This document shows positions 32,578-49,778 of a stretch of DNA of 64,000 nucleotides, piece by piece (within the stretch, counting starts at the first letter, position 1; every line of letters begins with the position of its first letter). The position numbers and the translations under genes were made by a program. This stretch comes from Escherichia phage P896, in sequence record OL451225.1. One strand, given 5' to 3'. Under the pieces are notes generated by a model. It did no database searches, had not been told where the DNA came from, and saw nothing but the letters and a program-made list of their open reading frames with translations.

Positions 32578-32608
32578 ACACGTATACCAATCAATAAGGA
32601 TAAAGCAC

Positions 32609-35600: not shown

Positions 35601-36484
35601 CTGGCTCATCTAAATACGTTCCTTTAATTAAGCAACGTTATAAAGATGGGACATTTACCTTTGGTACATTGATAAATGAACCTACCTCAAATGATGAAGG
35701 TGCTTTTGTTCTTCATTATATAGATGCAGTAAAAACCCAGCGTAAATGGACCTTTAGACGGAATGGTGATTTAGAAATAACTGCAGGTAATTTCGTTATT
35801 GGTAATGGGTCTGCTGTAATTAATGGTGGTCTTAATGTTACTAAAGCTTCTGGTATTACAACCACTGGGCTAGTTGCCAATAGTGAATCCAGATTCGAAG
35901 GTGCTGTTGCTATTAACAACTTCCTTACGGTAAGCAACAAAGCTACACTTAACAACGGCTTAGCTGTTCAGAAATATGCAAGGGTTACAGGCGATAAGAC
36001 TTCTGACATCTATAACAGAAAACCTACAATGGATACTGTCGGCTTCTGGTCCGTTGATATCGATGACCCTGCTACATATAATCAGTTCCCGGGCTATTTC
36101 AAAATGGTCGAAAAGACTAACGAAGTAACTGGTCTGCCTTATTTGGAGCGTGGTGAAGAAGTTAAATCACCTGGCACATTGACTCAGTTTGGCAACACGC
36201 TGAATTCACTCTATCAAGACTGGATTACTTATCCGAATACTGCTAATGCCAGCACCACTCGTTGGACTCGTACATGGCAGCAGAACAAAAACGCGTGGTC
36301 TGGTTTTGTTCAGGTCTTTGATGGAGGTAACCCACCTCAGCCGTCGGATATTGGTGCATTGCCTGCTGATAACGCTTCGATGAGTAACCTGACTATCAGG
36401 GATTGGTTAAGAATCGGTAACGTACGTATTGTTCCGGACCCAGTAACCAAATCCGTTAAATTCGAATGGATTGATACACCATAA
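32609..36484 (+). CDS. 34: Long tail fiber proximal subunit gp34
   Basis: 1291 aa (T4 is 1289 aa); repeated ...ATQ.E.N.GTD.T...TP..L... fiber repeats; first gene of the 34-35-36-37-38 cluster. Confidence 0.9.
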   Translation: MADILKPAFRATSGLDAAGEKVINVAKADYSVLSDGVNVDFFIEENTVQQYDATRGYKKNFAVINDNRIWVAQRDIAAPAGTFTPQYWLATRTDPKWETVASPTRQLSSGEFIAVDSAASFTTFTLPPNPTDGDTIVIKDIGGNTGYNEIKVQSSNVPGQGNQKIVRFGNQFTEILISKPFSYNMLIFSNRLWQFWEAGNEERGIRIEPSSGKYRTQASDFIMRHYTTAEKITFILPKYANQGDIIKSVDIDGLGPLYHLDVETFDESSSLGKQGQHSMEFRTTGDGFFVYNATEKLWVTWDGDNKTRLRVIRDNVKLLPNESIIVFGNDNNTAQTINIDLPTGVRPGDVVKIALNYLRKAQTVNIKASGTDKIASSVQLLQFPKRSEYPPDTEWVLVDSLTFNGNISYTPVIELSYMEDTDKGINYWVVAQNVPTVERVDSKDDLTRARLGVIALANQAQANVDHENNPEKELAITPQTLANRVATESRRGIARIANTAQVNQDTTFAFQDDIIISPKKLNERTATETRRGLAEIATQQETDAGTDDTTIITPRKLQARQGSESLSGIVKYVPTTGTTPAASRITVGTNVYNKNTTTLVISPKALDQYKADQNNQGAVYLATQSEVNAGATNTGFSNSVVTPETLGARRATDSNHGLIEIATQAETNAGTDYTRAVTPKTLNDRKASESLSGIAEIATQSEFDTGTDDTRIATPLKIKTRLNNTARTSVIAASGLVETGTLWDHYTLNILEANETQRGTARLATQLEVNTGTDDKTIVTPLKLMSKKATESTEGIVRIATRAETITGTSSILAVSPVSLKWIAQSEPTWAATTTTRGFAKMSEGAITFVGNATAGSTQALDLYEKNSYAISPYELNKTLGNFLPRLAKAADSDKLDNLDSTQFIRRDVAQDINANMTFKQPVRIESTLTVTGVVNLSGSVTSNNTTLTGATAINSNSTVGALNYIEFTSESQGAGTWNSQHDSNVKAPVFLNITTPSGSSKYVPLIKQRYKDGTFTFGTLINEPTSNDEGAFVLHYIDAVKTQRKWTFRRNGDLEITAGNFVIGNGSAVINGGLNVTKASGITTTGLVANSESRFEGAVAINNFLTVSNKATLNNGLAVQKYARVTGDKTSDIYNRKPTMDTVGFWSVDIDDPATYNQFPGYFKMVEKTNEVTGLPYLERGEEVKSPGTLTQFGNTLNSLYQDWITYPNTANASTTRWTRTWQQNKNAWSGFVQVFDGGNPPQPSDIGALPADNASMSNLTIRDWLRIGNVRIVPDPVTKSVKFEWIDTP

Positions 36485-36492
36485 GAGGTATT

Positions 36493-37629
36493 ATGGAAAG
36501 ATTTATGGCTGAATTTGGACAGGGATATGTCCAAGTTCCCGTGCTTTCTGAAAATAACGCAGTAAGATATAAATTGTCGATTGCTGGGACTTGTACCAAA
36601 TCGCCAAACTATCCCTACGTTAAGTTTCAAGATGAGGCCTTCGGGCCTCAGAACTTCCAGAATGGATTAAACCTTATTGAGATTGACCCTGTAACAAATA
36701 CAATCACTGCAACCAAAAGTTATGGCTTCACAAAAGACTACGATGTTATTTCGCAGGCTTTTGTGGCTTATATTAATTCCATCCCGGCGGGTAGGATTGT
36801 TTGTTTGATATCACAGGGGAAATTGAATGCTTCTCAAACTTTAATTGATTGGTTCAGAACACACGGCTCGACTGCATTCCCGGATAAGTGGCTGATTGAC
36901 CAAGTTGATACTTCATATTCGGCATTTTATATAACTGGTCGAAATGCAATCGTTAAAGAGCATGTGTTGTATAATGACGGGAAAACTGTTGAGGATGTAT
37001 TGACTCCATTGGAAATGGTGTATGACAACTTTGCTGATGTGGGCGGCACAGGGTTCCCTCTGCGCATCGTGGAAGACGAAAACACATATTACAGTAATAG
37101 TACACAAGAAATAAAACGTTTCCCCACAGACTCTCCTATCACTCCTGCGGCCGATTATAATATGGCCCCTGGTGATACTTTTTACCTGAAGTTTCAGCTG
37201 ACATATGACCAGGCACTTAAAGACCTTGGAACAACTCAGATGTCTGTTCGATTCTTTAATGGTCAGACGATGATTCAGTCAAACGATTATGATATCCCAT
37301 CTTCAGGACAAGCAAGCCCACCGGCTGGTGCATGGATGACGTTTGAACGTTATGTAGTTGTTCCACCGAATGCTGATGGATTTACACTGTACGCAAGGAA
37401 GACTGTTACTGCTGGACAAGGTGGAGTAAGGAATATTTTCTTTACAGAAATCGCGCGACAAGAAACACAAGCTAAATCCGCGGAAATCGGTGTCAACGGT
37501 ATAAGAATGGTTGTAGCTGGAGAACCAGGAAATCTTGGTAATGTCATTGCACAATTGAATGATAAAAATGCAACTAAAGCAAGTCAGTCTGGATTTGTAT
37601 TTGCCGCAGAATTCCGTGAAAAAGAATAA
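36493..37629 (+). CDS. 35: Long tail fiber hinge connector gp35
   Basis: 378 aa (T4 is 372 aa); position between 34 and 36. Confidence 0.85.
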   Translation: MERFMAEFGQGYVQVPVLSENNAVRYKLSIAGTCTKSPNYPYVKFQDEAFGPQNFQNGLNLIEIDPVTNTITATKSYGFTKDYDVISQAFVAYINSIPAGRIVCLISQGKLNASQTLIDWFRTHGSTAFPDKWLIDQVDTSYSAFYITGRNAIVKEHVLYNDGKTVEDVLTPLEMVYDNFADVGGTGFPLRIVEDENTYYSNSTQEIKRFPTDSPITPAADYNMAPGDTFYLKFQLTYDQALKDLGTTQMSVRFFNGQTMIQSNDYDIPSSGQASPPAGAWMTFERYVVVPPNADGFTLYARKTVTAGQGGVRNIFFTEIARQETQAKSAEIGVNGIRMVVAGEPGNLGNVIAQLNDKNATKASQSGFVFAAEFREKE

Positions 37630-37650
37630 GGACCTTCGGGTCCTTTTTTC
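37629..37650 (+). terminator. Intrinsic terminator after gene 35
   Basis: AGGACC-TTCG-GGTCCT hairpin followed by TTTTTTCATT. Confidence 0.65.
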
Positions 37651-37652
37651 AT

Positions 37653-37660
37653 TATAAATA
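37653..37660 (+). promoter_or_regulatory. T4 late promoter (TATAAATA) for gene 36
   Basis: Exact TATAAATA about 25 nt upstream of the gene 36 ATG. Confidence 0.7.
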
Positions 37661-37685
37661 CTCTTATCTAATAAAGGGGAATAAT

Positions 37686-38333
37686 ATGGCCGATTTAAGA
37701 GTAGGCTCAACGACTGGAGGCTCAGTTATCTGGCACCAGGGTAACTTTCCGTTGACGCCAGTAAGCAATGATTTATTTTACAAAACATATAAAGTATATA
37801 CAGAATTCAATAAACCACAGGCAGCAGATAACGACTTTGTTTCAAAGGCTCTTGGTGGTAATTATAAAGCAAACGTATATTTCGAGCAAGGTCTGACCTT
37901 TAACGATACAAATGGTTATGGCATTAAACTCGGAGCAAGAACTGGTGGTGCACCATTTACGGCTTCATTCCGTATAAAAGGTCCGTTTGGTTTCGAAACC
38001 GAAACAGGCACGCCATTTATTATTTTTGACCCTGATACTACAACCGGAGCCAAAAGATTCACGGTTATGGGTGATACGCTGGCTCGTCAAGTTTATGATG
38101 ATTCGGGTCGTGTATTTTCCCCAGGGAATACTCCGTCAAAAGCACAAGTTGGATTAAGTGATGTGGATAACGCAAAACAGGTCCAAATAAATAATAGTAA
38201 CATACAATCTATGGCTGGCGTTCTTTCAGCCCCCAATTTTATATCTAGGAGCCCAGGTACATTGAACGAACACGTTCCTCGTATTGACCAGGTTGTTCTT
38301 AGAGGTACATCTGAAGATTTTGGATATTATTAA
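37686..38333 (+). CDS. 36: Long tail fiber distal connector gp36
   Basis: 215 aa (T4 is 221 aa); position between 35 and 37. Confidence 0.85.
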
Positions 38334-38341
38334 GAGGCATT

Positions 38342-41300
38342 ATGGCTACTTTAAAATCGATACAATTTAAAAGAAGTAAAACACCAGGAGCCAAGCCTAC
38401 TGCAGCTCAGTTAGATGAAGGCGAACTGGCTATTAACTTGCGTGACCGTACTATTTTTACCAAGTCAGACCAGGGACAGATTATTGATTTAGGCTTTGCT
38501 AAAGGTGGTACTATTGATGGTGATGTGACTATTAATGGTAAATTTACTTTAAATGGTGCGCATGTTCAGACATTAGGTGGTATTAATACTACTGGCGGAA
38601 TTTATTCCGGCGCGGATGTGAGTGCATTGATTTATCGTGCTCGAAATGGTTCGTTTTATTCTAGAGCGTCGAATGATACTTCTAATGCTCATTTGTGGTT
38701 TGAAAATACCAACGGTTCTGAACGCGGTGTTTTATATGCCAAACCCCAGCTTGAAAATGAAGGCGTAATTACCATGCGCGTTCGCCAGGGTACTGCTGCC
38801 GGTGCGCAAAATTCAGAGTTCCATTTTATTTCTAATGATGGTGGTATTTTCCAGGCACGCAAATTAACTGCTTTAACTTCTATTAGTACACCAACTATTA
38901 GTGTTAATTTAATTAATCATGATTCAAAAACATTTGGACAATACGACAGTCAATCTTTAGTTAACTACGTATATCCAGGCACCGGCGAAACAAATGGTGT
39001 AAACTATCTTCGTAAAGTTCGAGCTAAATCAGGCGGAACCATTTATCATGAAATTTGTACGGCTCAAACAGATCAGGCAGATGAGGTTTCTTGGTGGTCC
39101 GGTAATACACCATCATTTAAATTATATGGTATTCGTAATGACGGCCGAATGATCGTCCGCAATAGCGTAGCCATCGGGACCGTGACTGCAGGATACCCGT
39201 CAAGCGACTATGGTAATGGTGCCGCTTTAGGATTCGGTGTTTATTTAGCTCTAGGCGATAACGGGACGGGGCTGTCATACAAAAAAACCGGTGTATTTGA
39301 TTTAGTTGGTTCAGGGAATTCTGTCGCATCTATTACTCCAGATAGTTTCCGTAGTACTCGTAAAGGTATATTTGGTTGTTCAGAAGACCAAGGCACCACA
39401 TGGATTATGCCTGGCACTAATGCCGCTTTCTTGTCTGTTCAAACACAAGCTGATAATAACAATGCTGGAGACGGACAAACTCATATTGGATACAATGCTG
39501 GCGGTAAAATGAGTCATTATTTCCGCGGTAAAGGCAAAACTAATATTAATACTCAGGAAGGTGTAGACGTTAACCCTGGTATATTGAAGTTAACCACCGG
39601 CAGTGAAAGTATTAGCTTTAATGCCGCAACTGGAAGTATTAATTCTACATTAGCTTTTCGTCTTAATAAAGGCATAATTATTGACGGACCTGATAATCAG
39701 GGATTCCAGTTTAACGCCCCGACGGCCGCAGATGGTACTAGAAGTATATACTGGAATAGTGGTACTCTCGCAGGTCAAAACAAAAACCCTGTTACAGTTA
39801 AAGTGTGGGGTAATTCATTTAACGCATCTGGTGATCGTAATCGTGAAACCGTTTTTGAAGTAGCTGATGGGCAAGGTTATTATTTTTACGCTCAACGTAC
39901 TAATCCTGCATCAGGTCAAACGGTAGGTCCGGTCAACTTTAAATTTAACGGAACTGTCGAAACAGGTCATATCATAGGCCTTGGAAATATAAGTGCCTCC
40001 GGTACAGGTTCTTTCGGTGGCAATGTTACCATGTCTAATGGTTTGTTTGTCCAAGGTGGTTCTTCTATTACTGGACAAGTTAAAATCGGCGGAACAGCAG
40101 ATGCATTAAGAATTTGGAATGCTGAATATGGCGCTATTTTCCGTCGTTCAGAAAGTAACTTTTATATTCTTCCAACCAATCAAAATGAAGGCGAAAGTGG
40201 AGACATTCACAGCTCTTTGAGACCTGTGAGAATAGGATTAAACGATGGCATGGTTGGGTTAGGAAGAGATTCTTTTATAGTAGATCAAAATAACGCTTTA
40301 ACTACAATAAACAGTAACTCTCGCATTAATGCCAACTTTAAAATGCAATTGGGACAGTCGACATACATTTATGCAGAATGTACTGATGCTGTTCGTCCAG
40401 CAGGGTGTGGTTCCTTTGCATCACAGAATAATGAAAACGTCCGTGCTCCGATTTATATGAATATAGAGCGTACTGCTACTTCTGAATATATTCCTATTGT
40501 TAAACAGCGGTATGTTAAGGGTAACGGTTGCTATTCATTAGGGACTTTAATTAATAATGGTAACTTTAGAGTTCATTATCATGGTGGCGGAGATAATGGT
40601 TCAACAGGACCACAGACAGCTGATTTTGGATGGGAATTTATTAAAAACGGTGATTTTATTTCTCCTGGTAGAATTATTGCCGGTGCTGCTATTCTTGGCA
40701 CTGATGGTAATATCACCGGTGGCTCTGGTAACTTTGCTAACTTAAACAGTACAATTGAATCACTTAAAACTGATATTGTTTCAAGTTATCCTATTGGAGC
40801 CCCAATTCCATGGCCAACGGATACTCCTCCTAATGGTTATGCTTTGATGGAAGGTCAGACCTTTGATACTGCAGCTTATCCTAAGCTCGCTATCGCATAT
40901 CCTACAGGTACTATTCCGGATATGCGTGGACAAACTATCAAGGGTAAGCCAAGTGGGCGTGCTGTGTTGAGTGCAGAAGCTGATGGTATTAAGTCCCATA
41001 CCCATGGTGCATCTGCTTCGAGTACTGACTTGGGCACTAAAACCACATCAAGCTTTGATTATGGCACTAAAACATCTTCAAGCTTTGATTATGGTACTAA
41101 AACTACCAACACCACAGGTAACCATAACCATAGTGTTAGTGGTAATACCAACACCACAGGTAACCATAGCCATAGAGATGGACGTCGATTTAACCCCAGT
41201 ATTTTTAAAGATACTTATCAATATGGTTATACAAGCTCAGGTCAAAATAACTGGGGTGTACAAGGCTCAGTAGGTATGTCTATGGGGTGGTTAGCGAATA

Positions 41301-41530
41301 CCAGTACAGATGGTAATCATAGCCACTCGTTCTCGGCTACTACTAACACAACAGGTAACCACGCTCATACTGTTGGTATCGGTGCCCATACTCACACTGT
41401 AGGTATCGGCGCTCACACTCACACGGTAGCGATTGGTTCACATGGACACTCTGTTACCATTAACAGCACCGGTAATACAGAAAACACGGTTAAAAACATT
41501 GCTTTTAACTATATCGTTCGTTTAGCATAA
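38342..41530 (+). CDS. 37: Long tail fiber distal subunit / receptor-binding protein gp37 (T4-type tip)
   Basis: 1062 aa; C-terminal His-x-His box repeats ([42 protein letters not shown]) and terminal ...[12 protein letters not shown] as in T4 gp37. Confidence 0.9.
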
Positions 41531-41534
41531 GGAG

Positions 41535-41550
41535 AGGGGCTTAGGCCCCT
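41535..41550 (+). promoter_or_regulatory. Hairpin between genes 37 and 38 (weak terminator or structure)
   Basis: AGGGGC-TTAG-GCCCCT stem-loop with a poor downstream T-run. Confidence 0.3.
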
Positions 41551-41557
41551 TCTGAAT

Positions 41558-42103
41558 ATGAAAATTTATCATTTTTATTTTGACACAAAAGAATTTTACA
41601 AAGAAGAAAATTATAAACCAGTTAAAGGCCTTGGTCTCCCGGCCCATTCAACAGCTAAAAAGCCTTTAGAACCTAAAGAAGGATATGCAGTTGTATTTGA
41701 TGAACGCATTCAAGATTGGATTTATGAAGAAGACCATCGAGGCAAACGTGCATGGACTTTTAATAAAGAAGAAATCTTAATAAATGACATAGGAAGCCCA
41801 GTCGGTATAACTTTCGATAAACCTGGCGAGTTTGATATATGGACAGATGATGGCTGGAAAGAAGATGAAACATATAAACGAGTGATGATTCGCAATCGAA
41901 AAATTGACGATTTGTATAAAGAATTCCAGGTATTAAGTAATATGGTTGAAGCCTCAGTCGCCGATAAGAAAGAAAAATTCTATCACCAGAATCTTAAACG
42001 TTTCTTTGCTCTTTTAGAAAAACACGAACACCTCGGTGGTGAATTCCCGGCTTGGCCAGAAAAAGAGAAAAAATCATTCTTCAAAAGATGGTTTAAAAAA
42101 TAG
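41558..42103 (+). CDS. 38: Tail fiber assembly chaperone gp38 (T4-type, not an adhesin)
   Basis: 181 aa; near-identical pattern to T4 gp38 (MKIYH.YFDTKEFYKEENYKPVKGLGLPAHST.KKPLEPKEGYAVVFDER.QDWIYEEDHRGKRAWTFNKEEI...). Confidence 0.9.
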   Translation: MKIYHFYFDTKEFYKEENYKPVKGLGLPAHSTAKKPLEPKEGYAVVFDERIQDWIYEEDHRGKRAWTFNKEEILINDIGSPVGITFDKPGEFDIWTDDGWKEDETYKRVMIRNRKIDDLYKEFQVLSNMVEASVADKKEKFYHQNLKRFFALLEKHEHLGGEFPAWPEKEKKSFFKRWFKK

Positions 42104-42117
42104 TAGCACAAAAGCAT

Positions 42118-42125
42118 TATAAATA
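42118..42125 (+). promoter_or_regulatory. T4 late promoter (TATAAATA) for holin t
   Basis: Exact TATAAATA about 18 nt upstream of the t ATG. Confidence 0.65.
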
Positions 42126-42143
42126 TCTTTAAAGGAGAAAAGT

Positions 42144-42797
42144 ATGGAACCAAAAGTAGGATTTTCATTATCAGACCTACTTTTTGGACTTCTTGATAGA
42201 ATTTTTAAAGATAATGCGACCGGGAAAGTTGTTTTTTCCCGGGTACTAGTTATTGTTCTATTATTTTTAATGGCGGTAATCTGGTATAAAGGTGATGCAA
42301 TTTTAGATGCGTACAGGGATGCTTCATATGCCTCGTACACAGAAATGATAAGGCAAGACCAGGATAACAGATTTAAAATTGCAGCTATCGAGCAAATCCA
42401 GATAGTTCACTCATCAAGCGGGGCTGACTTCACGGCGATATATTCTTTTAGACCAACTAACCTTAACTACTTTGTGGATATGGTAGGGTACGAGGGGATA
42501 TTACCTGAATCAGTTGATGAAAAAAATTTGGGTGGGTTTCCAATAGATAAGACTTCAGCAGAATATTTGGCGGGGGTTAATGGTAATTATTTTGAATCCA
42601 GTACGGAATCTGTATTCTTACCAACAAAGAAAAAAAGCAGCTTCGCATATATGTTTAGCTGCCCATTCTTTAATTTGGAAAACGTTTATGCAGGTACAGT
42701 CTCGCTGTACTGGTATAAGCAAAAACCTATCCTTGGTTTTGATAGGCTTTCTGCTATGTGTGGACAAGCAGGTCGTACGCTTGGGCGTACACGTTAG
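42144..42797 (+). CDS. t: Holin T
   Basis: 217 aa; T4 holin pattern (...SDLLFG.LDR.FKDNATGKV..SRV.V..LLF.MA..WY.GD..., ...LGGFP.DKT..EY...NG..., ...YMFSCPFFNL.N.YAGT...YWY...). Confidence 0.9.
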   Translation: MEPKVGFSLSDLLFGLLDRIFKDNATGKVVFSRVLVIVLLFLMAVIWYKGDAILDAYRDASYASYTEMIRQDQDNRFKIAAIEQIQIVHSSSGADFTAIYSFRPTNLNYFVDMVGYEGILPESVDEKNLGGFPIDKTSAEYLAGVNGNYFESSTESVFLPTKKKSSFAYMFSCPFFNLENVYAGTVSLYWYKQKPILGFDRLSAMCGQAGRTLGRTR

Positions 42798-43069
42798 AAT
42801 CCGGAGGTATACATCATAAGATAACGGTGTATATCTTCGAATCCTTCGTTAAATTGTTCAATGATTTGTTCAATTTCATCTTCAGATAAACTTTTAAACA
42901 ACTTGTTAAACGATACATTGTTTAACTCATTACCATTCTCATTCCTCAATCCCAACTCATTCAAAAACGCGATAAACACATCACGCTTCATCGTAATATC
43001 TTCCCGGTCGGTTTTAATCAAAATTGAAGTTACAGTAACAATTTCAGAAACGATTTCAAATTTAGTCAT
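42794..43069 (-). CDS. asiA: Anti-sigma70 factor AsiA
   Basis: 91 aa; T4 AsiA-like (...EI.TV.SILIK..REDI...R..FIAFLNE.G......LN..SF.K.......E....I..FNEGFE...RYL.MYT..); converges on t with overlapping stop codons. Confidence 0.75.
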   Translation of the reverse strand: MTKFEIVSEIVTVTSILIKTDREDITMKRDVFIAFLNELGLRNENGNELNNVSFNKLFKSLSEDEIEQIIEQFNEGFEDIHRYLMMYTSGF

Positions 43070-43118
43070 TTTAATTTACTCAAGTATTCAATAAGACATT
43101 CAATTATTCAGTAAGGAT

Positions 43119-43150
43119 ATTGTACTATTATTCCTCTGGGTTGTACACAT
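43119..43150 (-). promoter_or_regulatory. T4 early-type promoter upstream of asiA
   Basis: Minus strand GTGTACAAC-N17-TACAAT. Confidence 0.45.
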
Positions 43151-43292
43151 GATTTTCCATCTGTACAACATATTCCTGATACATCTGTTCAACTGGTTCC
43201 TGGAACTTAAAATCAGCTCCAAGGAATTCCTCAAAGCAAGACTGTTCGTGTGTACGTTGGCCAGTGATGGTGTTCTCTAAGTTATGACTCAT
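43128..43292 (-). CDS. Small hypothetical protein (54 aa)
   Basis: ORF below the track cutoff, MSHNLENTITGQRTHEQSCFEEFLGADFKFQEPVEQMYQEYVVQMENHVYNPEE, with GAGGA Shine-Dalgarno; acidic. Confidence 0.35.
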   Translation of the reverse strand: MSHNLENTITGQRTHEQSCFEEFLGADFKFQEPVEQMYQEYVVQMENHVYNPEE

Positions 43293-43301
43293 AACGATTC
43301 C

Positions 43302-43583
43302 TCAATCAATATAATATTCTAGACCAAAATCATCAATTTCTTCTTGAATTTCTCTTAATACTTGTTCTTCATCTAGACCAGACCCAAAAGTTACTTTAGC
43401 ATAACCTGGACGTTCACAAGAGAACCGAATTGTGTATTCCGGTTGGATATATCCAAAACTACTATCCAAATCACAAAGAATTTCTGCATAGATTTCGTCG
43501 CCGACAGCAGCATGAATTTTAAAAAGTTCATCAATGAGAATAACTAGTTCAGTTGCTTCGTACGTATGGAGTTTAGTAATCAT
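43302..43583 (-). CDS. arn: Small acidic protein, Arn-like (anti-restriction DNA mimic) by size, charge and position
   Basis: 93 aa (T4 Arn is 92 aa); strongly acidic; next to asiA as in T4. Not verified by alignment. Confidence 0.35.
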   Translation of the reverse strand: MITKLHTYEATELVILIDELFKIHAAVGDEIYAEILCDLDSSFGYIQPEYTIRFSCERPGYAKVTFGSGLDEEQVLREIQEEIDDFGLEYYID

Positions 43584-43672
43584 AACCTTTACCCTTATGT
43601 TTCTGTTTACGATTAGATTCTTTAAAGTTTTTCTTCTTATCCTTATGGACAGACGCCTTATTGAAATCGTGT

Positions 43673-43951
43673 TTAGCTACCAGGTTGTTCATGTAATTTC
43701 CTTAATTGGTATTCAAGAGAGCTAATAATTTCTTTATTAGTCGCAATATACATATCACGCAGGAAGGGCTTCAGACCTTCTCTAACTCTATATGTGTTAT
43801 CACTAATATCCTTTATATATTCATGGTCTAGGGCATCCCAACCTGGCTGGTTAACATAAGTTCCCCAGTTGTCTTCCATCATGGTATTCAGATGTTTGAT
43901 ATGATTAATATGGTTTTCAATCGCATCAATTTGGAGTTGTTTAAGGTTCAT
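43673..43951 (-). CDS. Hypothetical protein
   Basis: 92-aa ORF. Confidence 0.5.
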   Translation of the reverse strand: MNLKQLQIDAIENHINHIKHLNTMMEDNWGTYVNQPGWDALDHEYIKDISDNTYRVREGLKPFLRDMYIATNKEIISSLEYQLRKLHEQPGS

Positions 43952-44421
43952 TAGTAAAGGTCCTCTGAATAAAGTTCTTTCTCACTGCCGCCACGTTCAA
44001 TGTGCACCTGATTTGCATAAGTCGCAATAATCATTGCTTCTTCGCGGGTCCAGTAATTGCTGTATTGGTCAATAAATCCTTGATTATCACCACAAACATG
44101 GTCTGACACAAGTTTATCACTTACCTGGTCAAGCACTTCTGCCATATCCTTGGAATAATGTCTGGCGCCGGGAATAACCAGAGTCCCGCCATCTTTCAAC
44201 TTAAAGCGGTTGGCTGCACACACAATCCTGCGCTGATATTTTTCATTGTTGTTCCAATGAGCAATCTGCCAACAGATTTCAGGAACTTCCTTTAGAATAT
44301 CTTCTTCTGTGCATTTATAACCATGTGCTTTAAATTTTTCAGCAAGACTTTCTGGAGTCTCACGAGATAAAGGAACATTCAGCATTTTTAAACGATTAAT
44401 AAATGGATTCATTTGAACCAA
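43951..44421 (-). CDS. Hypothetical protein
   Basis: 156-aa ORF. Confidence 0.5.
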
Positions 44422-44741
44422 CCTTTAACACGTTGCCACAGACTTTTCTGTTGAGCTTTATTAACACCAATTGAGCGAATAACTGGTTGTGATTCCTGGT
44501 ATTCTTTGTAGTCAGCTTTATATACTTCATATGCTGCTGGAACAAAGGCACCAATCGCTGCCATGAAGTTCTTGCGTGCACCAAACGGAGCTACTGCATC
44601 ATCCTGACGATGGATAAGATACTGGCCAGCTTTGACCTTGACAATAGTTCCAAGGTAAGCGCCATGATACCAAACATCCCAACCTTCTTGAGTAGGTTCC
44701 ACACAAGCGCGTAATTCATTAACAATATTCAGCTTATTCAT
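44409..44741 (-). CDS. Hypothetical protein
   Basis: 110-aa ORF. Confidence 0.5.
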
Positions 44742-44748
44742 AATTTCC

Positions 44749-45357
44749 TCACTTTAAGATGTTAATAACATGTTGAATGTTTTCAGTTGACATAACGTTG
44801 TCAATGTAGGTATTCAATCCACCTACTTTAACGCTAAATCCCACGTCTGTAAACTGTTTTACTATCTTTTGTTCAGTATTATACGCATGCACACGAATCT
44901 GACCATCACGACGTACATCAATCTGTTTTAATGTCTTGATACGTTTGAACTTCACAATCAGATTGCTGCGGTCTTCTGAAATGCTCTTAAAGTCAATACC
45001 AATAGACAACAATTGCTCTTTGATATATTCTGCAGTCGCTTCCATTTCATCAGTCACACCGCGTTTTGTTCTTGTCTTTTTCACTTCCAGAAGGTCAGGA
45101 TTATTTTCATTCGCCCAAAGTTCAGCTGCATCCAGAATAAGGTCAACGCCTTTTTCTGTAACCATCAAACCATCACCAGAAGCTTCAACATAGTTGTTAT
45201 TCAACAAGGTCTGTACGCTATCAATTGATGTGTTCTGCTGGTCTAAAACAACCTCTGGACTCACGAAGTTGTTTTTGTATACAAACACCAGAGCATTGAC
45301 ATCAGTCTCATGCAGCGCGTTCTGGGAGCATTTAACGATATAATTTAACTTGTTCAC
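44749..45357 (-). CDS. motA: MotA-like middle-transcription activator (tentative)
   Basis: 202 aa (T4 MotA is 211 aa); position between the arn block and gene 52 matches T4; similarity not verified. Confidence 0.4.
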   Translation of the reverse strand: MNKLNYIVKCSQNALHETDVNALVFVYKNNFVSPEVVLDQQNTSIDSVQTLLNNNYVEASGDGLMVTEKGVDLILDAAELWANENNPDLLEVKKTRTKRGVTDEMEATAEYIKEQLLSIGIDFKSISEDRSNLIVKFKRIKTLKQIDVRRDGQIRVHAYNTEQKIVKQFTDVGFSVKVGGLNTYIDNVMSTENIQHVINILK

Positions 45358-45359
45358 AA

Positions 45360-45587
45360 TTATCCCTTAATAGATTTCATGTAATTTGATGCATATGATT
45401 GTACCACAGTACGTTTCATATGGGAAGTAGAAACAATCACATCAATCGCTTGTTTACGTTCTTCTTTAGAATTCGCCAGTTTGAACATGTCAAAGTAATA
45501 ATAGCAAGCTTCTTTGTTAGATTTGAATTTAGCGTTGATGTATTCTTGACCTTCATTCTGTTGTGCAGTAAACATTTTATTCTCCAA
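45360..45587 (-). CDS. Hypothetical protein
   Basis: 75-aa ORF with TGGAGAATAAAATG leader and its own early promoter. Confidence 0.5.
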   Translation of the reverse strand: MENKMFTAQQNEGQEYINAKFKSNKEACYYYFDMFKLANSKEERKQAIDVIVSTSHMKRTVVQSYASNYMKSIKG

Positions 45588-45624
45588 AGTTTTTGTGATT
45601 CAGTGTGTAACTCAGTATGGAATC

Positions 45625-45660
45625 ATTATGCCTCATGACCATCTGGTTGTACACTACTTT
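45625..45660 (-). promoter_or_regulatory. T4 early-type promoter
   Basis: Minus strand AAAAAAGTAGTGTACAACC-N-CATAATGATTCCATACTGAGTTAC. Confidence 0.5.
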
Positions 45661-45667
45661 TTTAAAA

Positions 45668-45692
45668 TAAAAAAGGACCCCGAAGGGTCCTA
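45668..45692 (-). terminator. Intrinsic terminator
   Basis: Minus-strand GGACCC-UUCG-GGGUCC followed by UUUUUUAUUUU. Confidence 0.65.
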
Positions 45693-45788
45693 GTCTTTAT
45701 CTATCTTATTACCAATAAACATACCAACAATCACACCTGCGATTGCCGCAAAAATACAAAGCAATGCAAACTCAACTCCAAAACTCAT
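45690..45788 (-). CDS. Small hydrophobic protein (32 aa), coupled to gene 52
   Basis: MSFGVEFALLCIFAAIAGVIVGMFIGNKIDKD; its ATG overlaps the gene 52 stop (ATGA). Confidence 0.4.
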   Translation of the reverse strand: MSFGVEFALLCIFAAIAGVIVGMFIGNKIDKD

Positions 45789-47164
45789 AGAGCCTCCAAA
45801 TCATTAAGGTATTCAGTTTTAACATCAGTTGTCTTCCAGTACTCATGCTCAGCTTTCTTAGCCTTTGCTTCGTCTGCAAGCTTCTTGGCTTCATCAGAGG
45901 TCATATGGTAGATGTTCATCGCCACTAACTTCTCTGCATAATCGCCATATATTTCACTCGCCTGGAGTTCCTCAATCAACTTCTTACGAGGTTTCCCCTG
46001 GATAACAACCTTACCATCAATCACTTCTTTAATAAAGAAGACTTTCGCGCGGGCCAGTTTAAATGCCGCTTCAGTTTCTTTAATCTTACTGTCAATTCGC
46101 ACTTGAACATAAGTCTTACGGACATCAACGAAATCGCGAATCAGGTCAAGCGTGTTGGTGTATTCAGCCAGCTTGCCTTTGTGATTAAGCACCGTTAAGT
46201 TCTGGGAGAGCTTCTCAATCAGACCGAAGTCTTTCATGATTTTCTCATGATTCTCTTCTTCAGTACCATCCAGCTTGTATTCTTTGCGGAATTTAATCTT
46301 AAACCCGAAACCATGCTCGCCGCAGTTATCTTTCCAGGTGATAAAACCTTTCTCTTCCAGTGGGTCCAGAATTTTACTTATATACTTTTCCAGGTTCCAT
46401 TGGACCGGGATTTCAGTAATTTCCATTTGAGTCCTGGAGGTCATTTTGTATGTGCCATGAAGCTCATACTTGCCAGGCTCTTCCAATTCAACAACTTTGC
46501 CACGGAATTCTGGATATTTTACTTTCGGAGCAACCGGCTCACGACCTTCCACGATAGCTTTAACAGCTTCCTTGACGTCCTGGAACGAATGAGGAAGAAT
46601 ATCAGTAGCGAAGCCAACAGCAATCCCAGAAGTGGCGTTAAGTAATACAGTAGGAATAACAGGAAGATAAAAAGCAGGAGGCTTATGTTCTTCATCAGGA
46701 TGGACCGGAGCATATTCTGTATCCTTAAACAAGTTATAAAAGTTCTTTGAAACCCTTGCGAATACATAACGAGCTGATGATGCTTCTGGCACCATTCTGG
46801 AACCAAAGTTACCTTGCCCATCAAACATGGGGTATTCATTTTTATATGTTGCAACCAGACCAGAAGTTGCTTCTTCCGCTGATGCTTCGCCATGGTGATA
46901 ACCATAATCAGCTACGCCACCTGCAATGGATGCAACCTTATGGAATTTATTCTTATCACCGCGCGCCAGGTCTAATGCTCTCGCCATAACAAATCTGTGA
47001 ACTGGTTTAAAACCATCAATCATGTTTGGGATGGCACGACCTTCCACAGTGTATATAGCATATGACAATGCTTCCACATCAATAATGTCTTTTAGACTGC
47101 GTGGGTTAAGGGTCCCCATGGAATCACTGAACTGTTTGGACATCATACTTAAAACGTCAGACAT
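45785..47164 (-). CDS. 52: DNA topoisomerase II medium subunit gp52 (GyrA-like cleavage core)
   Basis: 459 aa (T4 is 442 aa); GyrA N-terminal features (...AIPNMIDGFKPVHRFV..., active-site region ...SSARYVFARVS...). Confidence 0.9.
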   Translation of the reverse strand: MSDVLSMMSKQFSDSMGTLNPRSLKDIIDVEALSYAIYTVEGRAIPNMIDGFKPVHRFVMARALDLARGDKNKFHKVASIAGGVADYGYHHGEASAEEATSGLVATYKNEYPMFDGQGNFGSRMVPEASSARYVFARVSKNFYNLFKDTEYAPVHPDEEHKPPAFYLPVIPTVLLNATSGIAVGFATDILPHSFQDVKEAVKAIVEGREPVAPKVKYPEFRGKVVELEEPGKYELHGTYKMTSRTQMEITEIPVQWNLEKYISKILDPLEEKGFITWKDNCGEHGFGFKIKFRKEYKLDGTEEENHEKIMKDFGLIEKLSQNLTVLNHKGKLAEYTNTLDLIRDFVDVRKTYVQVRIDSKIKETEAAFKLARAKVFFIKEVIDGKVVIQGKPRKKLIEELQASEIYGDYAEKLVAMNIYHMTSDEAKKLADEAKAKKAEHEYWKTTDVKTEYLNDLEAL

Positions 47165-47172
47165 ATATCACC

Positions 47173-47313
47173 TTACCAGATTAACGAATGTACTGCCATT
47201 ATAGCATCAGAAATAAAAAGCACAACCTGCACTAATGCAAATACAACTCCATAATACAGCGCTACCAATAATGCAGCAAGGGCTAACGAGTAGCCCAGGA
47301 TTTTCTTAATCAT
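47173..47313 (-). CDS. Small membrane protein (46 aa)
   Basis: MIKKILGYSLALAALLVALYYGVVFALVQVVLFISDAIMAVHSLIW; overlaps the next gene by ATGA. Confidence 0.4.
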   Translation of the reverse strand: MIKKILGYSLALAALLVALYYGVVFALVQVVLFISDAIMAVHSLIW

Positions 47314-47474
47314 CTATTAACCACAGAAATCATAAATTTAACAAAAGCGTCAGTTACAAACCATCCACATAAGAAATAAACAAACCCCATAGGCGGAACA
47401 AAGACACCTGCAAGAAAAAGCGTTACCAAAACAACTACTGCTATCATATAAATGAACGAAAAGACCGTTGACAT
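47310..47474 (-). CDS. Small membrane protein (54 aa; ac-like position)
   Basis: MSTVFSFIYMIAVVVLVTLFLAGVFVPP...; GAGGAAAAT Shine-Dalgarno; the track start at 47495 is a TTG upstream extension. Confidence 0.45.
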   Translation of the reverse strand: MSTVFSFIYMIAVVVLVTLFLAGVFVPPMGFVYFLCGWFVTDAFVKFMISVVNR

Positions 47475-47481
47475 ATTTTCC

Positions 47482-47562
47482 TCAGGGGCGTCCAAAGACG
47501 CCAGTTAATTTCAGATTATGACGATGCCATTGCATCACATGTTCATTATGGAAATTACTCAT
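47482..47562 (-). CDS. stp: Stp peptide (26 aa; inhibitor of type I restriction / activator of the PrrC anticodon nuclease)
   Basis: Hand-translated 26-aa [29 protein letters not shown]; size, sequence and position next to ndd match T4 stp. Confidence 0.65.
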
Positions 47563-47563
47563 A

Positions 47564-48013
47564 TTAATAGCTCTGCAAAATGAATTTAAAGTTATCAGCA
47601 AGCATGCGATTCATTTCTGAAAGGGTCTGACAATCAGAACTATGTGAGCGAGTGAACGCCATCGCAATTTGACCTTTACCATAACCAGTTGTCAGAGATT
47701 TCATTTTAGAAACTGGGACAAACAGGACTTCATAGATAACACCATTGTTCGCCATTGTGCGAGACAGTTGAGAACGCTGTTTGCGGATGTGACTTAACAC
47801 AGTGTCAAACCCTTGTTGTGAACGTTGGTTACCAACATAAAAACGTGCCGCAACAATACGTGATTCACCTTCACCTTTAACCACGAAATAAAAACCTGGC
47901 TGGGCGATAGCTTCTTTAGTTGGACGCCCTGCAACATAATTACCATTATGGATGTAAGCAACAGTGGTAGCGCCGGCATTCAGTACGTCACGACGGGTCA
48001 TGTAAGTAGTCAT
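47564..48013 (-). CDS. ndd: Nucleoid disruption protein Ndd
   Basis: 149 aa (T4 Ndd is 151 aa); position after stp. Confidence 0.7.
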
Positions 48014-48057
48014 ATTAATTTCCTCAGTAAGTTAAAGTTTTGTGCTCCAGTGGGGTC

Positions 48058-48090
48058 ATTATACTCTGACCCCAAGAGTATGTACACTAT
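48058..48090 (-). promoter_or_regulatory. T4 early-type promoter with a palindrome around the -10
   Basis: Minus strand GTGTACATA-N-GGGGTCAGAGTATAATGACCCC (GGGGTCA/TGACCCC inverted repeat). Confidence 0.5.
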
Positions 48091-48431
48091 TTTTGAAGTT
48101 GTTCTAAAATAAATCCGCTGGTGTAAAGGCTTGCATTATACAGGCGGTCAAGAGACAACGAATCCAATCCATAAGCTTCGCGAATTGCATTGATAGCACT
48201 CTCATAACTTGTATAATAAACATCGCGATAATCGCGGTCCATAGTCATGCGGAACTTAATAAATTTGTAGAAACCAGTTTCAGGGTCCTGATAGAATGCA
48301 AATTCTGCAGACATCAAATTTTTAAGGTTAACAGCTTTTGTACCACCTGAATAACTTAAATCAAATGCTTCTGATATGCTAATCTGTTTAAAGAACATAA
48401 TGTTGCGATTACCAAAAAAGATTTTAGACAT
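48087..48431 (-). CDS. Hypothetical protein
   Basis: 114-aa ORF. Confidence 0.5.
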   Translation of the reverse strand: MSKIFFGNRNIMFFKQISISEAFDLSYSGGTKAVNLKNLMSAEFAFYQDPETGFYKFIKFRMTMDRDYRDVYYTSYESAINAIREAYGLDSLSLDRLYNASLYTSGFILEQLQK

Positions 48432-48470
48432 AATGATTTCCTCAGTTAAATTTTATTATCCACTGGGAAC

Positions 48471-48503
48471 ATTATACTCTGCTCCCAAGAGTTTGTACAC
48501 TAT
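48471..48503 (-). promoter_or_regulatory. T4 early-type promoter with a palindrome around the -10
   Basis: Minus strand GTGTACAAAC-N-GGGAGCAGAGTATAATGTTCCC. Confidence 0.5.
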
Positions 48504-48745
48504 TCTACATCAACTGCGTCATCCCACAAGTCAACTTCTTCTGATGATTCCATCAGTTCATCAACTGTGAAGCACTCAGTATTATTTTCAATTGCAAAAC
48601 GCTTCTGATAAAAAGGATAATCCAAACAGTTTTCAGTGCGCACGGGGCGTTCACTGTTATCCATTAAAGGCGAAATGCGAATCAGTTGTTGACCATTACC
48701 CAGGACAAATTTTTCACCAACTGCAATGTCTTTAAAAAGTTTCAT
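48500..48745 (-). CDS. Hypothetical protein
   Basis: 81-aa acidic ORF. Confidence 0.5.
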   Translation of the reverse strand: MKLFKDIAVGEKFVLGNGQQLIRISPLMDNSERPVRTENCLDYPFYQKRFAIENNTECFTVDELMESSEEVDLWDDAVDVE

Positions 48746-48948
48746 TGCTTAGCTCCATTCCAAATTACATCAACAACAGACTTCAAACCATTATCCTGGA
48801 TTTGTGTGAATACTTCAGCAGCAATCCAGACCTGGAAACCAATCATTGCAATGGCACCAATGAAAATCAGGATAATCATCGCCACAATAAACTTGAACAT
48901 AAAGTCAAAGCGACGATTGGATTTCTGAAAGTGTGAATTGTAATTCAT
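48742..48948 (-). CDS. Small membrane protein (68 aa from internal ATG)
   Basis: GAGGA Shine-Dalgarno before MNYNSHF...; one clear transmembrane helix. Confidence 0.45.
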   Translation of the reverse strand: MNYNSHFQKSNRRFDFMFKFIVAMIILIFIGAIAMIGFQVWIAAEVFTQIQDNGLKSVVDVIWNGAKQ

Positions 48949-48958
48949 AATATTATCC

Positions 48959-49075
48959 TCAAAAGAAATAGTTAAAGTAAACACGCACATGGTCAATCAT
49001 AAAAACAATTGGGAAAATGCTCAGGACAACAAACAGTACAAACATGTTCCAAATGGCTTTAAGTAACTTTTTCAT
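48959..49075 (-). CDS. Small membrane protein (38 aa)
   Basis: MKKLLKAIWNMFVLFVVLSIFPIVFMIDHVRVYFNYFF; GGAGA Shine-Dalgarno. Confidence 0.35.
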   Translation of the reverse strand: MKKLLKAIWNMFVLFVVLSIFPIVFMIDHVRVYFNYFF

Positions 49076-49100
49076 AATCATCTCCAGTAGTTGATAGGTT

Positions 49101-49132
49101 CATTATACTACAACCACCGGAGATGTACACTT
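49101..49132 (-). promoter_or_regulatory. T4 early-type promoter
   Basis: Minus strand GTGTACATC-N16-TATAATGAACCTATCAACTAC. Confidence 0.45.
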
Positions 49133-49220
49133 TTTTATGCAAGTTTCATTAATAATAAACTAAAACAAACGCAAATTACTGGGATACACAACATCCAGAT
49201 AAGACACCAGGTTTTGCTGC

Positions 49221-49487: not shown

Positions 49488-49497
49488 TTTGTTTTCC

Positions 49498-49704: not shown

Positions 49705-49738
49705 TTTATTCTCCAGTTTGGTAACTCAGTATGGAATC

Positions 49739-49770
49739 ATTATGCACTGACTCCATACTGATGTACACTA
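49739..49770 (-). promoter_or_regulatory. T4 early-type promoter
   Basis: Minus strand AAAAAGTAGTGTACATC-N-CATAATGATTCCATACTGAGTTAC. Confidence 0.5.
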
Positions 49771-49778
49771 CTTTTTAA

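What the first reader, a model, noticed from the sequence alone, without database searches (positions are those of the whole stretch)
42791..42800. Convergent genes t and asiA end on overlapping stop codons with no terminator between them
The + strand late holin gene and the minus-strand early asiA gene share the tetranucleotide TTAG as their stop codons. Convergent transcription must collide or read through into the antisense of the partner gene, which could provide antisense regulation between early and late programmes.
Basis: seen in the sequence. Interest (0 to 1): 0.2.

Follow-up and report, generated by a model that had tools for sequence, protein, structure and literature searches.

The report
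Holin and asiA genes share stops
In this T4-like phage the late holin gene t and the early anti-sigma gene asiA run into each other and overlap by four bases, a compact arrangement that is already annotated in relatives and is ordinary for this phage family; the RNA-end signals seem to sit inside the neighbouring gene rather than between the genes.

Summary
Gene t (holin, + strand, 42144-42797) stops at TAG 42795-42797. Gene asiA (- strand, 43069-42794) stops at TAA, the complement of 42794-42796. The coding regions overlap by 4 nt (TTAG) and the two stop codons share 2 nt.

This is not new. The same overlap is annotated in phage JS98 and other Dhakavirus genomes. It recurs in Enterobacter, Citrobacter and Acinetobacter T4-like phages. 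In T4 itself the two stops abut with no gap.

More distant relatives keep a small spacer that is a hairpin or a textbook bidirectional terminator. The spacer-less state therefore looks like a compaction.

"No terminator between them" is literally true, but the flanks are not featureless. The 160 nt across the junction is the most stable + strand fold in the whole 64 kb window. A 14-bp stem-loop (42802-42839) begins 5 nt after the t stop. It is conserved with two compensatory pairs, it is stronger than the AsiA protein sequence requires, it lacks a U-tract, and a C-rich, G-poor stretch follows it. This is the anatomy of a Rho-dependent 3' end.

Antisense regulation between the early and late programmes remains an untested possibility. 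Interest is low.

The parts
42144..42797 (+). Gene t (holin), 217 aa, stop TAG at 42795-42797
   Evidence: ORF list. Pfam Phage_holin_T, E 5e-68. Annotated as t in JS98, VR7, VR25 and SP18.
42794..43069 (-). Gene asiA (anti-sigma-70 factor and co-activator of middle transcription), 91 aa, stop TAA = complement of 42794-42796
   Evidence: ORF list. Pfam AsiA, E 8e-21. 51% identical to T4 AsiA. Six of the eight sigma-70-contacting residues listed in PMC2988021 are identical, one is a conservative change (I to L) and one differs (T4 F21 is Thr here), in alignment A1.
42794..42797 (.). TTAG: the 4-nt overlap of the two coding regions. The two stop codons share TA (42795-42796).
   Evidence: Read directly. 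The same junction is present in relatives.
42118..42125 (+). TATAAATA, the T4-type late promoter motif, 18 nt upstream of the t start codon
   Evidence: There are only three + strand copies in 30000-50000, each just upstream of a + strand late gene (32571, 37653, 42118).
43119..43147 (-). Early-type promoter-like site TGTACA-17-TACAAT, about 50 nt upstream of the asiA ATG
   Evidence: The family has 7 sites, all on the - strand, against 0.07 expected.
42802..42839 (+). Stem-loop H5: 14 bp with a 10-nt loop, starting 5 nt after the t stop. It lies in the antisense of the last 14 asiA codons and has no U-tract. It is the candidate 3'-terminal protective hairpin of the late t transcript.
   Evidence: Free energy is -16.1 kcal/mol on the + strand against -7.2 on the - strand, because its G-U pairs become A-C mismatches. 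99.4% of cells are paired and two pairs show compensatory changes in 12 distinct sequences. Synonymous recoding of AsiA gives z = -4.2, with 0.2% of recodings as stable. The - strand gives z = -0.9.
42877..42997 (+). C-rich, G-poor tract in the + strand RNA, antisense of the middle of asiA. It is a candidate Rho loading (rut) region directly downstream of H5.
   Evidence: C/G ratio about 5 in 80-nt windows. 17-21 C against 3 G per 60 nt at 42900-42989. GC skew is -0.29.
42775..42790 (.). Small palindromic hairpin GTACGC-4 nt-GCGTAC in the last codons of t. It forms on either strand and lies 4 nt beyond the asiA stop on the - strand.
   Evidence: -6.9 kcal/mol on both strands. It is absent from C6-type Dhakavirus, so it is probably incidental.
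42720..42746 (-). Weak terminator-like element in the asiA-sense RNA inside the 3' end of t: CCUAUC, 9-nt loop, GAUAGG, then UUUUUG. It ends about 70 nt after the asiA stop.
   Evidence: -11.4 kcal/mol with flanking A/U pairs. The scanner missed it because the loop exceeds 8 nt. JS98 has a mismatch in the stem and C6 lacks the element. The recoding test for this segment is only z = -1.7, p = 0.06.
42474..42593 (-). C-rich, G-poor tract in the - strand RNA (antisense of t), 200-320 nt after the asiA stop. It is a candidate Rho loading region for read-through asiA transcripts.
   Evidence: C/G ratio about 3.5.

Best explanation
This is the compacted boundary between two converging transcription units of a JS98-like (Dhakavirus) T-even phage. 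One unit is the late tail-fibre/lysis unit (genes 34-38 and t, + strand). The other is the early/middle asiA-motA unit (- strand).

The intergenic spacer carries a hairpin or a bidirectional terminator in more distant relatives. In this lineage it is absent, so the two stop codons interlock as TTAG. I infer that it was deleted, but the direction of change was not polarised against a phylogeny. The overlap itself does nothing. It is one of several interchangeable packing states.

RNA 3' ends are therefore made inside the partner gene. For the late t transcript, ribosomes leave at 42797 and the untranslated RNA folds into the conserved 14-bp stem-loop at 42802-42839. Rho loads on the C-rich, G-poor tract just downstream (about 42880-43000) and stops RNA polymerase within asiA. 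Exonucleases then trim back to the stem-loop, which stabilises the t mRNA.

For the asiA transcript, termination is either weak intrinsic termination at the hairpin plus U5 near 42720, or Rho-dependent termination further into the antisense of t.

Shown here: the anatomy, the conservation, the compensatory changes and the codon-level bias. Inferred: the involvement of Rho, the trimming by exonucleases and the actual positions of the 3' ends.
For: Comparative series over 62 loci:
- -4 nt: Dhakavirus, Enterobacter CIP9, Citrobacter CF1, Acinetobacter Acj61.
- 0 nt: T4, Mosigvirus, Marfavirus, Jiaodavirus, several Acinetobacter phages.
- +8 nt: Karamvirus.
- +12, +17 and +26 nt: the spacer is a GC hairpin with a UUCG loop bracketed by the two stops (Erwinia FBB1, Serratia CHI14, L029).
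- +56 nt: a textbook bidirectional terminator (Aeromonas AhFM11). TransTerm also predicts a bidirectional terminator next to asiA in Aeh1.

The same phage uses a textbook bidirectional terminator at its other convergent junction, 3196-3226.

Structure at the junction:
- The + strand segment 42681-42840 folds at -60.3 kcal/mol. That is rank 1 of 3192 windows in the 64 kb, with z = -5.35.
- H5 is twice as stable on the + strand as on the - strand.
- H5 is conserved, with two compensatory pairs.
- H5 is far more stable than synonymous recodings of AsiA (z = -4.2, 0.2% as stable).

Across 16 lineages, the antisense-of-asiA RNA is more structured than its recodings where the spacer is missing. It is not more structured where a spacer hairpin exists (Mann-Whitney p = 0.009).

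T4 has a terminator-like hairpin, AAAACCCUCGUUGA-AUUCG-UCGAUGAGGGUUUU-CUUAUCUUC, 42-75 nt after the t stop, inside asiA.

A stable stem-loop without a U-tract, followed directly by a rut region, is the reported anatomy of Rho-dependent 3' ends in E. coli (PMC6061677). T4 depends on host Rho behaviour (PMC2988021).
Against: No RNA data for this phage, or for T4 at this junction, could be found. All 3' ends are therefore predictions.

H5 was singled out after I had looked at the folds, so its p-values are post hoc.

The clade that conserves H5 is shallow (92% mean column identity), and the two covarying pairs represent about two evolutionary events.

Close relatives L016 and L017 show much weaker overall folding of the 160-nt segment (z about -1.8).

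No structure is conserved across all lineages (RNAalifold on 45 sequences found none).

The recoding test used this window's codon usage for every lineage.

C>G composition is a general property of antisense RNA in this genome, so it is not specific to this site.

The - strand element is weak and is not conserved even in JS98.
Confidence: 0.5

Rival explanations
1. Pure packing with no dedicated 3'-end signals. The overlap is a neutral by-product of selection for a compact genome. Both transcripts simply run on into the partner gene until Rho or chance stops them. The hairpins are by-products of conserved peptides and codon usage.
For: The junction spacing varies freely among relatives. No structure is shared by all lineages. 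The small hairpin at 42775-42790 and the - strand element are not conserved. Several gap-0 lineages (Mosigvirus, Jiaodavirus, Morttis) show no excess + strand structure.
Against: The junction is the best-folding + strand segment of the whole window. H5 beats 99.8% of synonymous recodings on the + strand only. H5 keeps pairing through two double changes that alter AsiA residues. Spacer-less lineages show more embedded structure than lineages with a spacer hairpin.
Confidence: 0.3
2. One reading: sense-antisense (excludon-like) regulation. Early asiA read-through makes anti-t RNA that keeps the lethal holin silent early. Late t read-through makes anti-asiA RNA that helps switch off middle-mode transcription. 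This would act through RNA duplexes (RNase III) or through polymerase collision.
For: Overlapping 3' regions are unavoidable, because any terminator must lie inside the partner gene. On the - strand the next strong canonical terminator is 5 kb away, at 37645-37628. From my own memory, not checked with the tools here, early 'anti-late RNA' complementary to late genes was described in T4 in the 1970s. Overlapping-transcription regulation is established in bacteria (review PMC7154746, listed).
Against: There is no expression data. Early and late transcription are largely separated in time in T4, where AsiA RNA and protein appear at the earliest time points (PMC9697503). Relatives that insert a strong bidirectional terminator or an extra ORF at the same junction (Aeromonas phages, Cronus) manage without such coupling, so it cannot be a conserved requirement. 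The structured, Rho-type anatomy suggests that read-through is curtailed rather than exploited.
Confidence: 0.12
3. Embedded intrinsic terminators. H5 on the + strand, and the hairpin plus U5 at 42720-42746 on the - strand, act directly as Rho-independent terminators located inside the partner's coding sequence.
For: T4 and several Acinetobacter phages carry textbook hairpin-plus-U-tract elements embedded in the partner gene. Examples are T4 at +42 to +75 on the + strand, and L058 and L061 with GAGCGGCUUGAU...AUCAAGCCGCUUUUUUUG on the - strand. The - strand element in this window has five U residues after the stem.
Against: H5 is followed by GAAUCCUUCGUU, with only 3 U in the first 8 nt. The - strand stem has only 6 core pairs and a 9-nt loop, and it is mismatched in JS98. 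Neither element passes the consensus scan.
Confidence: 0.2

Closest known systems
The t/asiA junction of phage T4 and of annotated Dhakavirus genomes (JS98, C6, VR7, SP18)
   Same: The two genes, their convergent orientation and their neighbours (37, 38, t | asiA, arn.2-4, motA) are the same. JS98 and C6 are annotated with exactly the same 4-nt overlap.
   Different: In T4 the stops abut (TAATTA, gap 0) rather than interlock. T4 carries a terminator-like hairpin 42-75 nt into asiA. This phage carries a U-tract-less stem-loop 5-42 nt into asiA.
Bidirectional intrinsic terminators between convergent genes
   Same: They serve the same need at a convergent junction. This window has one at 3196-3226. 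Aeromonas phages, Erwinia FBB1 and Serratia CHI14 have one at the t/asiA junction itself. Nolan et al. 2006 describe conserved ones elsewhere in T4-like genomes (PMC1524935).
   Different: Here there is no spacer at all. No GC-rich hairpin with U-tracts on both sides exists at or near 42794-42797.
Rho-dependent 3' ends with a protective stem-loop (Dar and Sorek 2018, PMC6061677)
   Same: A stable stem-loop that is not followed by U residues lies just after the stop codon. A C-rich, G-poor stretch follows immediately downstream, in RNA that is not translated.
   Different: The element lies inside the coding sequence of the converging gene, so it must coexist with the AsiA reading frame. Rho dependence is untested.
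Excludon and overlapping 3'-UTR antisense regulation in bacteria (review PMC7154746)
   Same: Convergent genes of different programmes whose transcripts must overlap at their 3' ends.
   Different: No evidence of mutual repression exists here. The overlap may be only some tens of nucleotides. The two genes are expressed at different times anyway.

Membership tests
T holin (Pfam PF11031, Phage_holin_T) | Full-length match to the family profile above the curated cut-off | tested here: met
   229.4 bits against a cut-off of 22.2, E 5e-68, residues 6-216. The C-terminal motif RL..(I/M)C.QA.R.LGR is shared with other T holins.
T holin (Pfam PF11031, Phage_holin_T) | Late expression from a T4-type late promoter | tested here: met
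   TATAAATA at 42118-42125, 18 nt upstream of the ATG. This is a motif only; no expression data exist.
AsiA anti-sigma factor (Pfam PF09010) | Match to the family profile above the cut-off, and conservation of the sigma-70 region 4 contact residues | tested here: met
   74.4 bits against a cut-off of 25. Counterparts of T4 E10, V14, I17, L18, K20 and F36 are identical. I40 is Leu and F21 is Thr (residue list from PMC2988021).
Intrinsic (Rho-independent) terminator between the two genes | GC-rich stem-loop followed by a U-tract, located between the stop codons | tested here: not met
   The stops overlap, so no intergenic base exists. The consensus scan finds nothing at the junction.
Bidirectional terminator | One hairpin flanked by an A-tract upstream and a U-tract downstream, so that it terminates on both strands | tested here: not met
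   Absent at 42794-42797. Present at 3196-3226 in the same window, and at the t/asiA junction of AhFM11, FBB1 and CHI14.
Rho-dependent terminator with protective 3' stem-loop | Stable stem-loop not followed by a U-rich stretch, just downstream of the stop codon | tested here: met
   H5 at 42802-42839, -16.1 kcal/mol, tail GAAUCCUUCG. It is conserved with compensatory pairs and exceeds the synonymous recodings.
Rho-dependent terminator with protective 3' stem-loop | C-rich, G-poor, untranslated rut region directly downstream | tested here: met
   C/G ratio about 5 at 42877-42997. The composition is typical of antisense RNA in this genome, so the feature is not specific.
Rho-dependent terminator with protective 3' stem-loop | Termination abolished by Rho inhibition, with 3' ends mapping to the base of the stem-loop | not testable with these tools
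   This needs Term-seq with and without bicyclomycin in infected cells.
Excludon-like antisense regulation | Transcripts of the two genes overlap | tested here: inconclusive
   Overlap is forced by the geometry, since any stop signal lies inside the partner gene. Its length and its timing are unknown.
Excludon-like antisense regulation | Expression of one gene lowers expression of the other through the overlap | not testable with these tools
   No strand-specific data were found for T4 or relatives at this locus.

The most novel reading that the evidence does not exclude
The interlocked junction is used for timing. Early and middle transcription from the asiA promoter reads through into the antisense of t (and of 38 and 37), and so keeps the lethal holin silent until late. 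Late t transcripts carry the conserved stem-loop and an anti-asiA tail that helps to shut down AsiA-dependent middle transcription. The loss of the spacer terminator in T-even lineages would then be adaptive rather than mere packing.
Probability: 0.08. Interest if true: 0.55.

Novelty: already known. Interest (0 to 1): 0.17.

Why it matters
The overlap itself matters little. It is an annotated and common packing state in T4-like phages.

The modest added value is comparative. The same junction runs from a full bidirectional terminator, through miniature UUCG hairpins bracketed by the two stop codons, to no spacer at all. In the spacer-less lineages the RNA-end structure appears to have moved into the neighbour's coding sequence, where it shapes codon choice and even amino-acid choice in AsiA.

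If confirmed, this would be a tidy example of how phages keep transcript ends defined while removing non-coding DNA. It would also be a caution for anyone recoding or engineering asiA or t.

Tried and rejected
1. Canonical terminator scans of 41000-45000 and 30000-49999 found nothing at the junction.

2. I tested the idea that a hairpin in the antisense of the conserved T C-terminal codons (RL..IC.QAA) is a universal embedded terminator for asiA. RNAalifold on 45 distinct sequences found no consensus structure. The mean folding energies of the two strands were equal (-16.0 against -15.2 kcal/mol). The hairpin is convincing only in Acinetobacter phages (L010, L057-L059, L061), so I dropped it as a general explanation.

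3. The hairpin at 42775-42790 is not conserved in C6-type Dhakavirus. I treat it as incidental.

4. An Rfam search of 41500-44000 gave no meaningful match.

5. I searched the literature for RNA 3'-end or antisense data at the T4 t/asiA junction. Nothing relevant turned up. The T4 genome review (PMC150520) and the original asiA paper (PMC196100) are not held. The late-transcription review does not discuss termination or antisense RNA.

6. I did not use the large protein-database, structure-prediction or genome-contig searches. The gene identities were unambiguous from Pfam and from the annotated relatives.

Full report
**What is there**

The window comes from a JS98-like T-even phage (genus Dhakavirus). 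A 1.4-kb query around the site matches Dhakavirus genomes at about 95-97% identity, with the same genes annotated.

Bases 42790-42799 read cacgTTAGaa. The + strand ORF 42144-42797 is a T holin (Pfam PF11031, E 5e-68). The - strand ORF 43069-42794 is AsiA (PF09010, E 8e-21).

Gene t ends with TAG at 42795-42797. Gene asiA ends with TAA, the complement of 42794-42796. The coding regions overlap by four bases, but the two stop codons share only the central TA.

**Temporal classes**

A T4-type late promoter motif TATAAATA lies 18 nt upstream of the t start codon. It is one of only three + strand copies in 20 kb, and each copy sits just upstream of a late gene.

Upstream of asiA lies TGTACA-17-TACAAT. 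It belongs to a family of seven sites, all on the - strand, against 0.07 expected by chance. In T4, AsiA RNA and protein appear at the earliest time points (PMC9697503). The labels 'late t' and 'early asiA' are thus reasonable.

**Is it known, and is it more than chance?**

The same 4-nt overlap is annotated in JS98 (t 160588-161241; asiA complement 161238-161513) and in phage C6. In T4 the two stops abut with no base between them (t ends at 160877, asiA begins at 160878).

I measured the junction in 62 loci from annotated phage records and IMG/VR contigs:

| Spacing | Junction sequence or content | Lineages |
|---|---|---|
| -4 nt | TTAG or TTAA | Dhakavirus; Enterobacter phage CIP9 group; Citrobacter CF1 / Salmonella KM16; Acinetobacter Acj61 |
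| 0 nt | TAATTA or TGATTA | T4 group, Mosigvirus, Marfavirus, Jiaodavirus, several Acinetobacter phages |
| +8 nt | no hairpin | Karamvirus |
| +12 / +17 / +26 nt | spacer is a GC hairpin with a UUCG loop bracketed by the two stops (TAA-GGGC-TTCG-GCCC-TTA in Erwinia FBB1) | Erwinia FBB1; Serratia CHI14; L029 |
| +56 nt | textbook bidirectional terminator | Aeromonas AhFM11 |
| about 190-310 nt | an extra ORF, plus a terminator right after t | Tulanevirus-type Aeromonas/Stenotrophomonas phages; Erwinia Cronus |

TransTerm predictions published for T4-like phages list a bidirectional terminator next to asiA only for Aeh1 (PMC1524935 supplement).

The convergent t/asiA adjacency is therefore ancient and conserved. 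The exact spacing is free to vary. The spacer-less state looks like a compaction of a junction that once held a hairpin, although I did not polarise the direction of change against a phylogeny. The overlap is inherited rather than a coincidence, but it is not itself a constrained device.

**'No terminator'**

This is literally true. Consensus scans find nothing at the junction. The same phage places a textbook bidirectional terminator, AAAGGGACC-CGAA-GGTCCCTTTTTT, in the 27-nt spacer of its other convergent junction at 3196-3226.

The next hairpin-plus-U-tract elements in the direction of travel are far away:
- About 2.9 kb on the + strand, at 45674-45691, and with a poor tail on that strand.
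- About 5 kb on the - strand, at 37645-37628.

**The flanks are not featureless**

The 160 nt at 42681-42840 fold at -60.3 kcal/mol on the + strand. That is the lowest value of 3192 overlapping windows in the 64 kb, both raw and GC-corrected. Against dinucleotide shuffles z = -5.35. The - strand of the same segment gives -44.7 kcal/mol, z = -4.1.

The most interesting element is a 14-bp stem-loop, H5, at 42802-42839. It starts 5 nt after the t stop and lies in the antisense of the last 14 asiA codons.
- Its free energy is -16.1 kcal/mol on the + strand but only -7.2 on the - strand, because several G-U pairs become A-C mismatches.
- In 12 distinct sequences of the Dhakavirus/CIP9 clade, 99.4% of cells are paired. 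Two pairs change on both sides (U-A to C-G). Some of these changes alter AsiA residues.
- I recoded the last 14 AsiA codons synonymously, using this phage's codon usage. Only 0.2% of recodings gave a + strand hairpin as stable (z = -4.2). The - strand showed no excess (z = -0.9).

H5 has no U-tract; its tail is GAAUCCUUCG. It is followed by a C-rich, G-poor stretch, with 17-21 C against 3 G per 60 nt at 42900-42989.

[quoted passage not shown] T4 development is known to be sensitive to host Rho alleles (PMC2988021).

**Independent lineages**

T4 has a different embedded element in the same role. It is a 14-bp hairpin with a U-rich tail, 42-75 nt after the t stop, inside asiA. It is also more stable than the recodings (z = -3.1).

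I compared 16 representative lineages. The antisense-of-asiA RNA is more structured than its recodings where the spacer is absent (12 lineages, mean z about -1.3). It is not more structured where a spacer hairpin is present (z +0.3 to +1.7). The one-sided Mann-Whitney p is 0.009, uncorrected for phylogeny.

On the other strand, Acinetobacter phages carry a convincing terminator in the antisense of the last T codons (GAGCGGCUUGAU...AUCAAGCCGCUUUUUUUG). This is not general, because RNAalifold on 45 sequences finds nothing shared.

In this window the asiA-sense RNA has only a weak candidate: CCUAUC, 9-nt loop, GAUAGG, UUUUUG, at 42746-42720. It is mismatched in JS98 and absent in C6. Its recoding test gives p = 0.06.

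**Most likely mechanism**

This is genome compaction at a conserved convergent boundary, with 3'-end formation displaced into the partner gene. My confidence is about 0.5.

For the late t mRNA I propose four steps:
- Ribosomes are released at 42797.
- H5 forms in the untranslated RNA.
- Rho loads on the C-rich tract and terminates transcription within asiA.
- Exonucleases trim back to H5.

For asiA mRNA I propose weak intrinsic termination near 42720, or Rho-dependent termination within the antisense of t, where the C/G ratio is about 3.5 at 42474-42593.

The anatomy, the conservation and the codon bias are shown. Rho dependence and the real 3' ends are inferred.

**Rivals**

- Neutral packing with incidental hairpins (confidence 0.3).
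- Embedded Rho-independent terminators (0.2).

The antisense model cannot be excluded, since some 3' overlap of the RNAs is unavoidable. From memory, not checked with the tools here, early 'anti-late' RNA was described in T4 decades ago. Three things argue against a required coupling. The two programmes are largely separated in time. Relatives with a strong terminator or an extra ORF at this junction do without it. And the local anatomy looks designed to end transcripts rather than to extend them.

**Verdict**

The feature itself is already known and ordinary for T4-like phages.

The only mildly new element is the evidence that RNA-end structure has been absorbed into asiA's coding sequence in the spacer-less lineages. 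Interest is low (0.17).

Noticed in passing
window 3196-3226: The other convergent junction of the window lies between the + strand gene ending at 3195 and the - strand gene ending at 3223. Its 27-nt spacer holds a textbook bidirectional terminator, AAAGGGACC-CGAA-GGTCCCTTTTTT (-17.1 and -14.0 kcal/mol on the two strands). This fits the conserved terminator 'upstream of alt' reported for T4-like phages (PMC1524935).
   Followed up: partly
window 42101-42840, + strand: Much of the t mRNA is unusually structured. About a dozen of the 25 best-folding + strand 160-nt windows of the whole 64 kb lie within gene t. One element is a 16-bp hairpin at 42684-42720 (-17.3 kcal/mol), inside the conserved YAGTVSLYWYK codons. 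I did not examine whether this affects holin translation or timing.
   Followed up: partly
window 19358, 43119, 48058, 48471, 49102, 58655, 63093 (all - strand): A promoter-like family TGTACA-N16-18-TAYAAT has seven exact copies, all on the early-gene strand, against 0.07 expected. Several copies share a longer consensus, TGTACAAACTCTTGGGAGCAGAGTATAAT. These are presumably this phage's early promoters.
   Followed up: partly
L004 1474-1491; L028 and L029 junctions (Erwinia FBB1, Serratia CHI14): These junctions hold miniature intergenic hairpins with UUCG tetraloops, in which the two stop codons form the outer A-U pairs of the stem (TAA-GGGC-TTCG-GCCC-TTA; TAA-GGAGAC-TTCG-GTCTCC-TTTA). This is an elegant minimal bidirectional element.
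   Followed up: partly
L058, L061, L010, L057 and L059 (Acinetobacter T4-like phages), 20-60 nt beyond the asiA stop: A strong hairpin plus U-tract lies in the asiA-sense RNA, built from the antisense of the T holin codons RL(D/E)..C.QAA. In L010 several pairs are G-U on that strand and would be A-C on the t-sense strand. The recoding test gives z about -3.1 to -3.2.
   Followed up: partly
window 41558-42103 compared with L001 715-1503: Gene 38 here is the short T4-type tail-fibre assembly chaperone (181 aa). JS98 carries the longer T2/T6-type adhesin (262 aa). For many relatives, similarity to the window starts only at about 42105-42117, right at the t late promoter. This suggests the tail-fibre 37/38 cassette has been exchanged, with a breakpoint just upstream of t.
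   Followed up: no
L014 and L023 (Escherichia phage vB_EcoM_005): In this Dhakavirus record the junction is disturbed. The asiA match comes in two pieces. The holin is annotated as fragments. A copy of the T C-terminus reads on through the usual stop into the asiA antisense (...GQAGQDIRSNTLEIGGIHH*). This is either a local duplication or frameshift, or an assembly problem.
   Followed up: no
window 37628-37645 and 45674-45691: There are two further GC hairpins with UUCG- or GAAG-type loops. One lies between genes 35 and 36 (+ strand, TTTTCATTAT tail), matching the conserved 35/36 terminator of T4-like phages. The other lies between the 459-aa ORF at 45785-47164 (not identified here; by position possibly the topoisomerase medium subunit) and the 202-aa ORF at 44749-45357 (also not identified here; by position possibly motA), and is strong on the - strand.
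   Followed up: no
window about 41150-41450 (C-terminal part of the gene 37 product): The distal tail-fibre protein ends with repeated His-x-His stretches ([44 protein letters not shown]). At the DNA level these produce direct repeats and a spurious terminator-like hit at 41159-41128.
   Followed up: no
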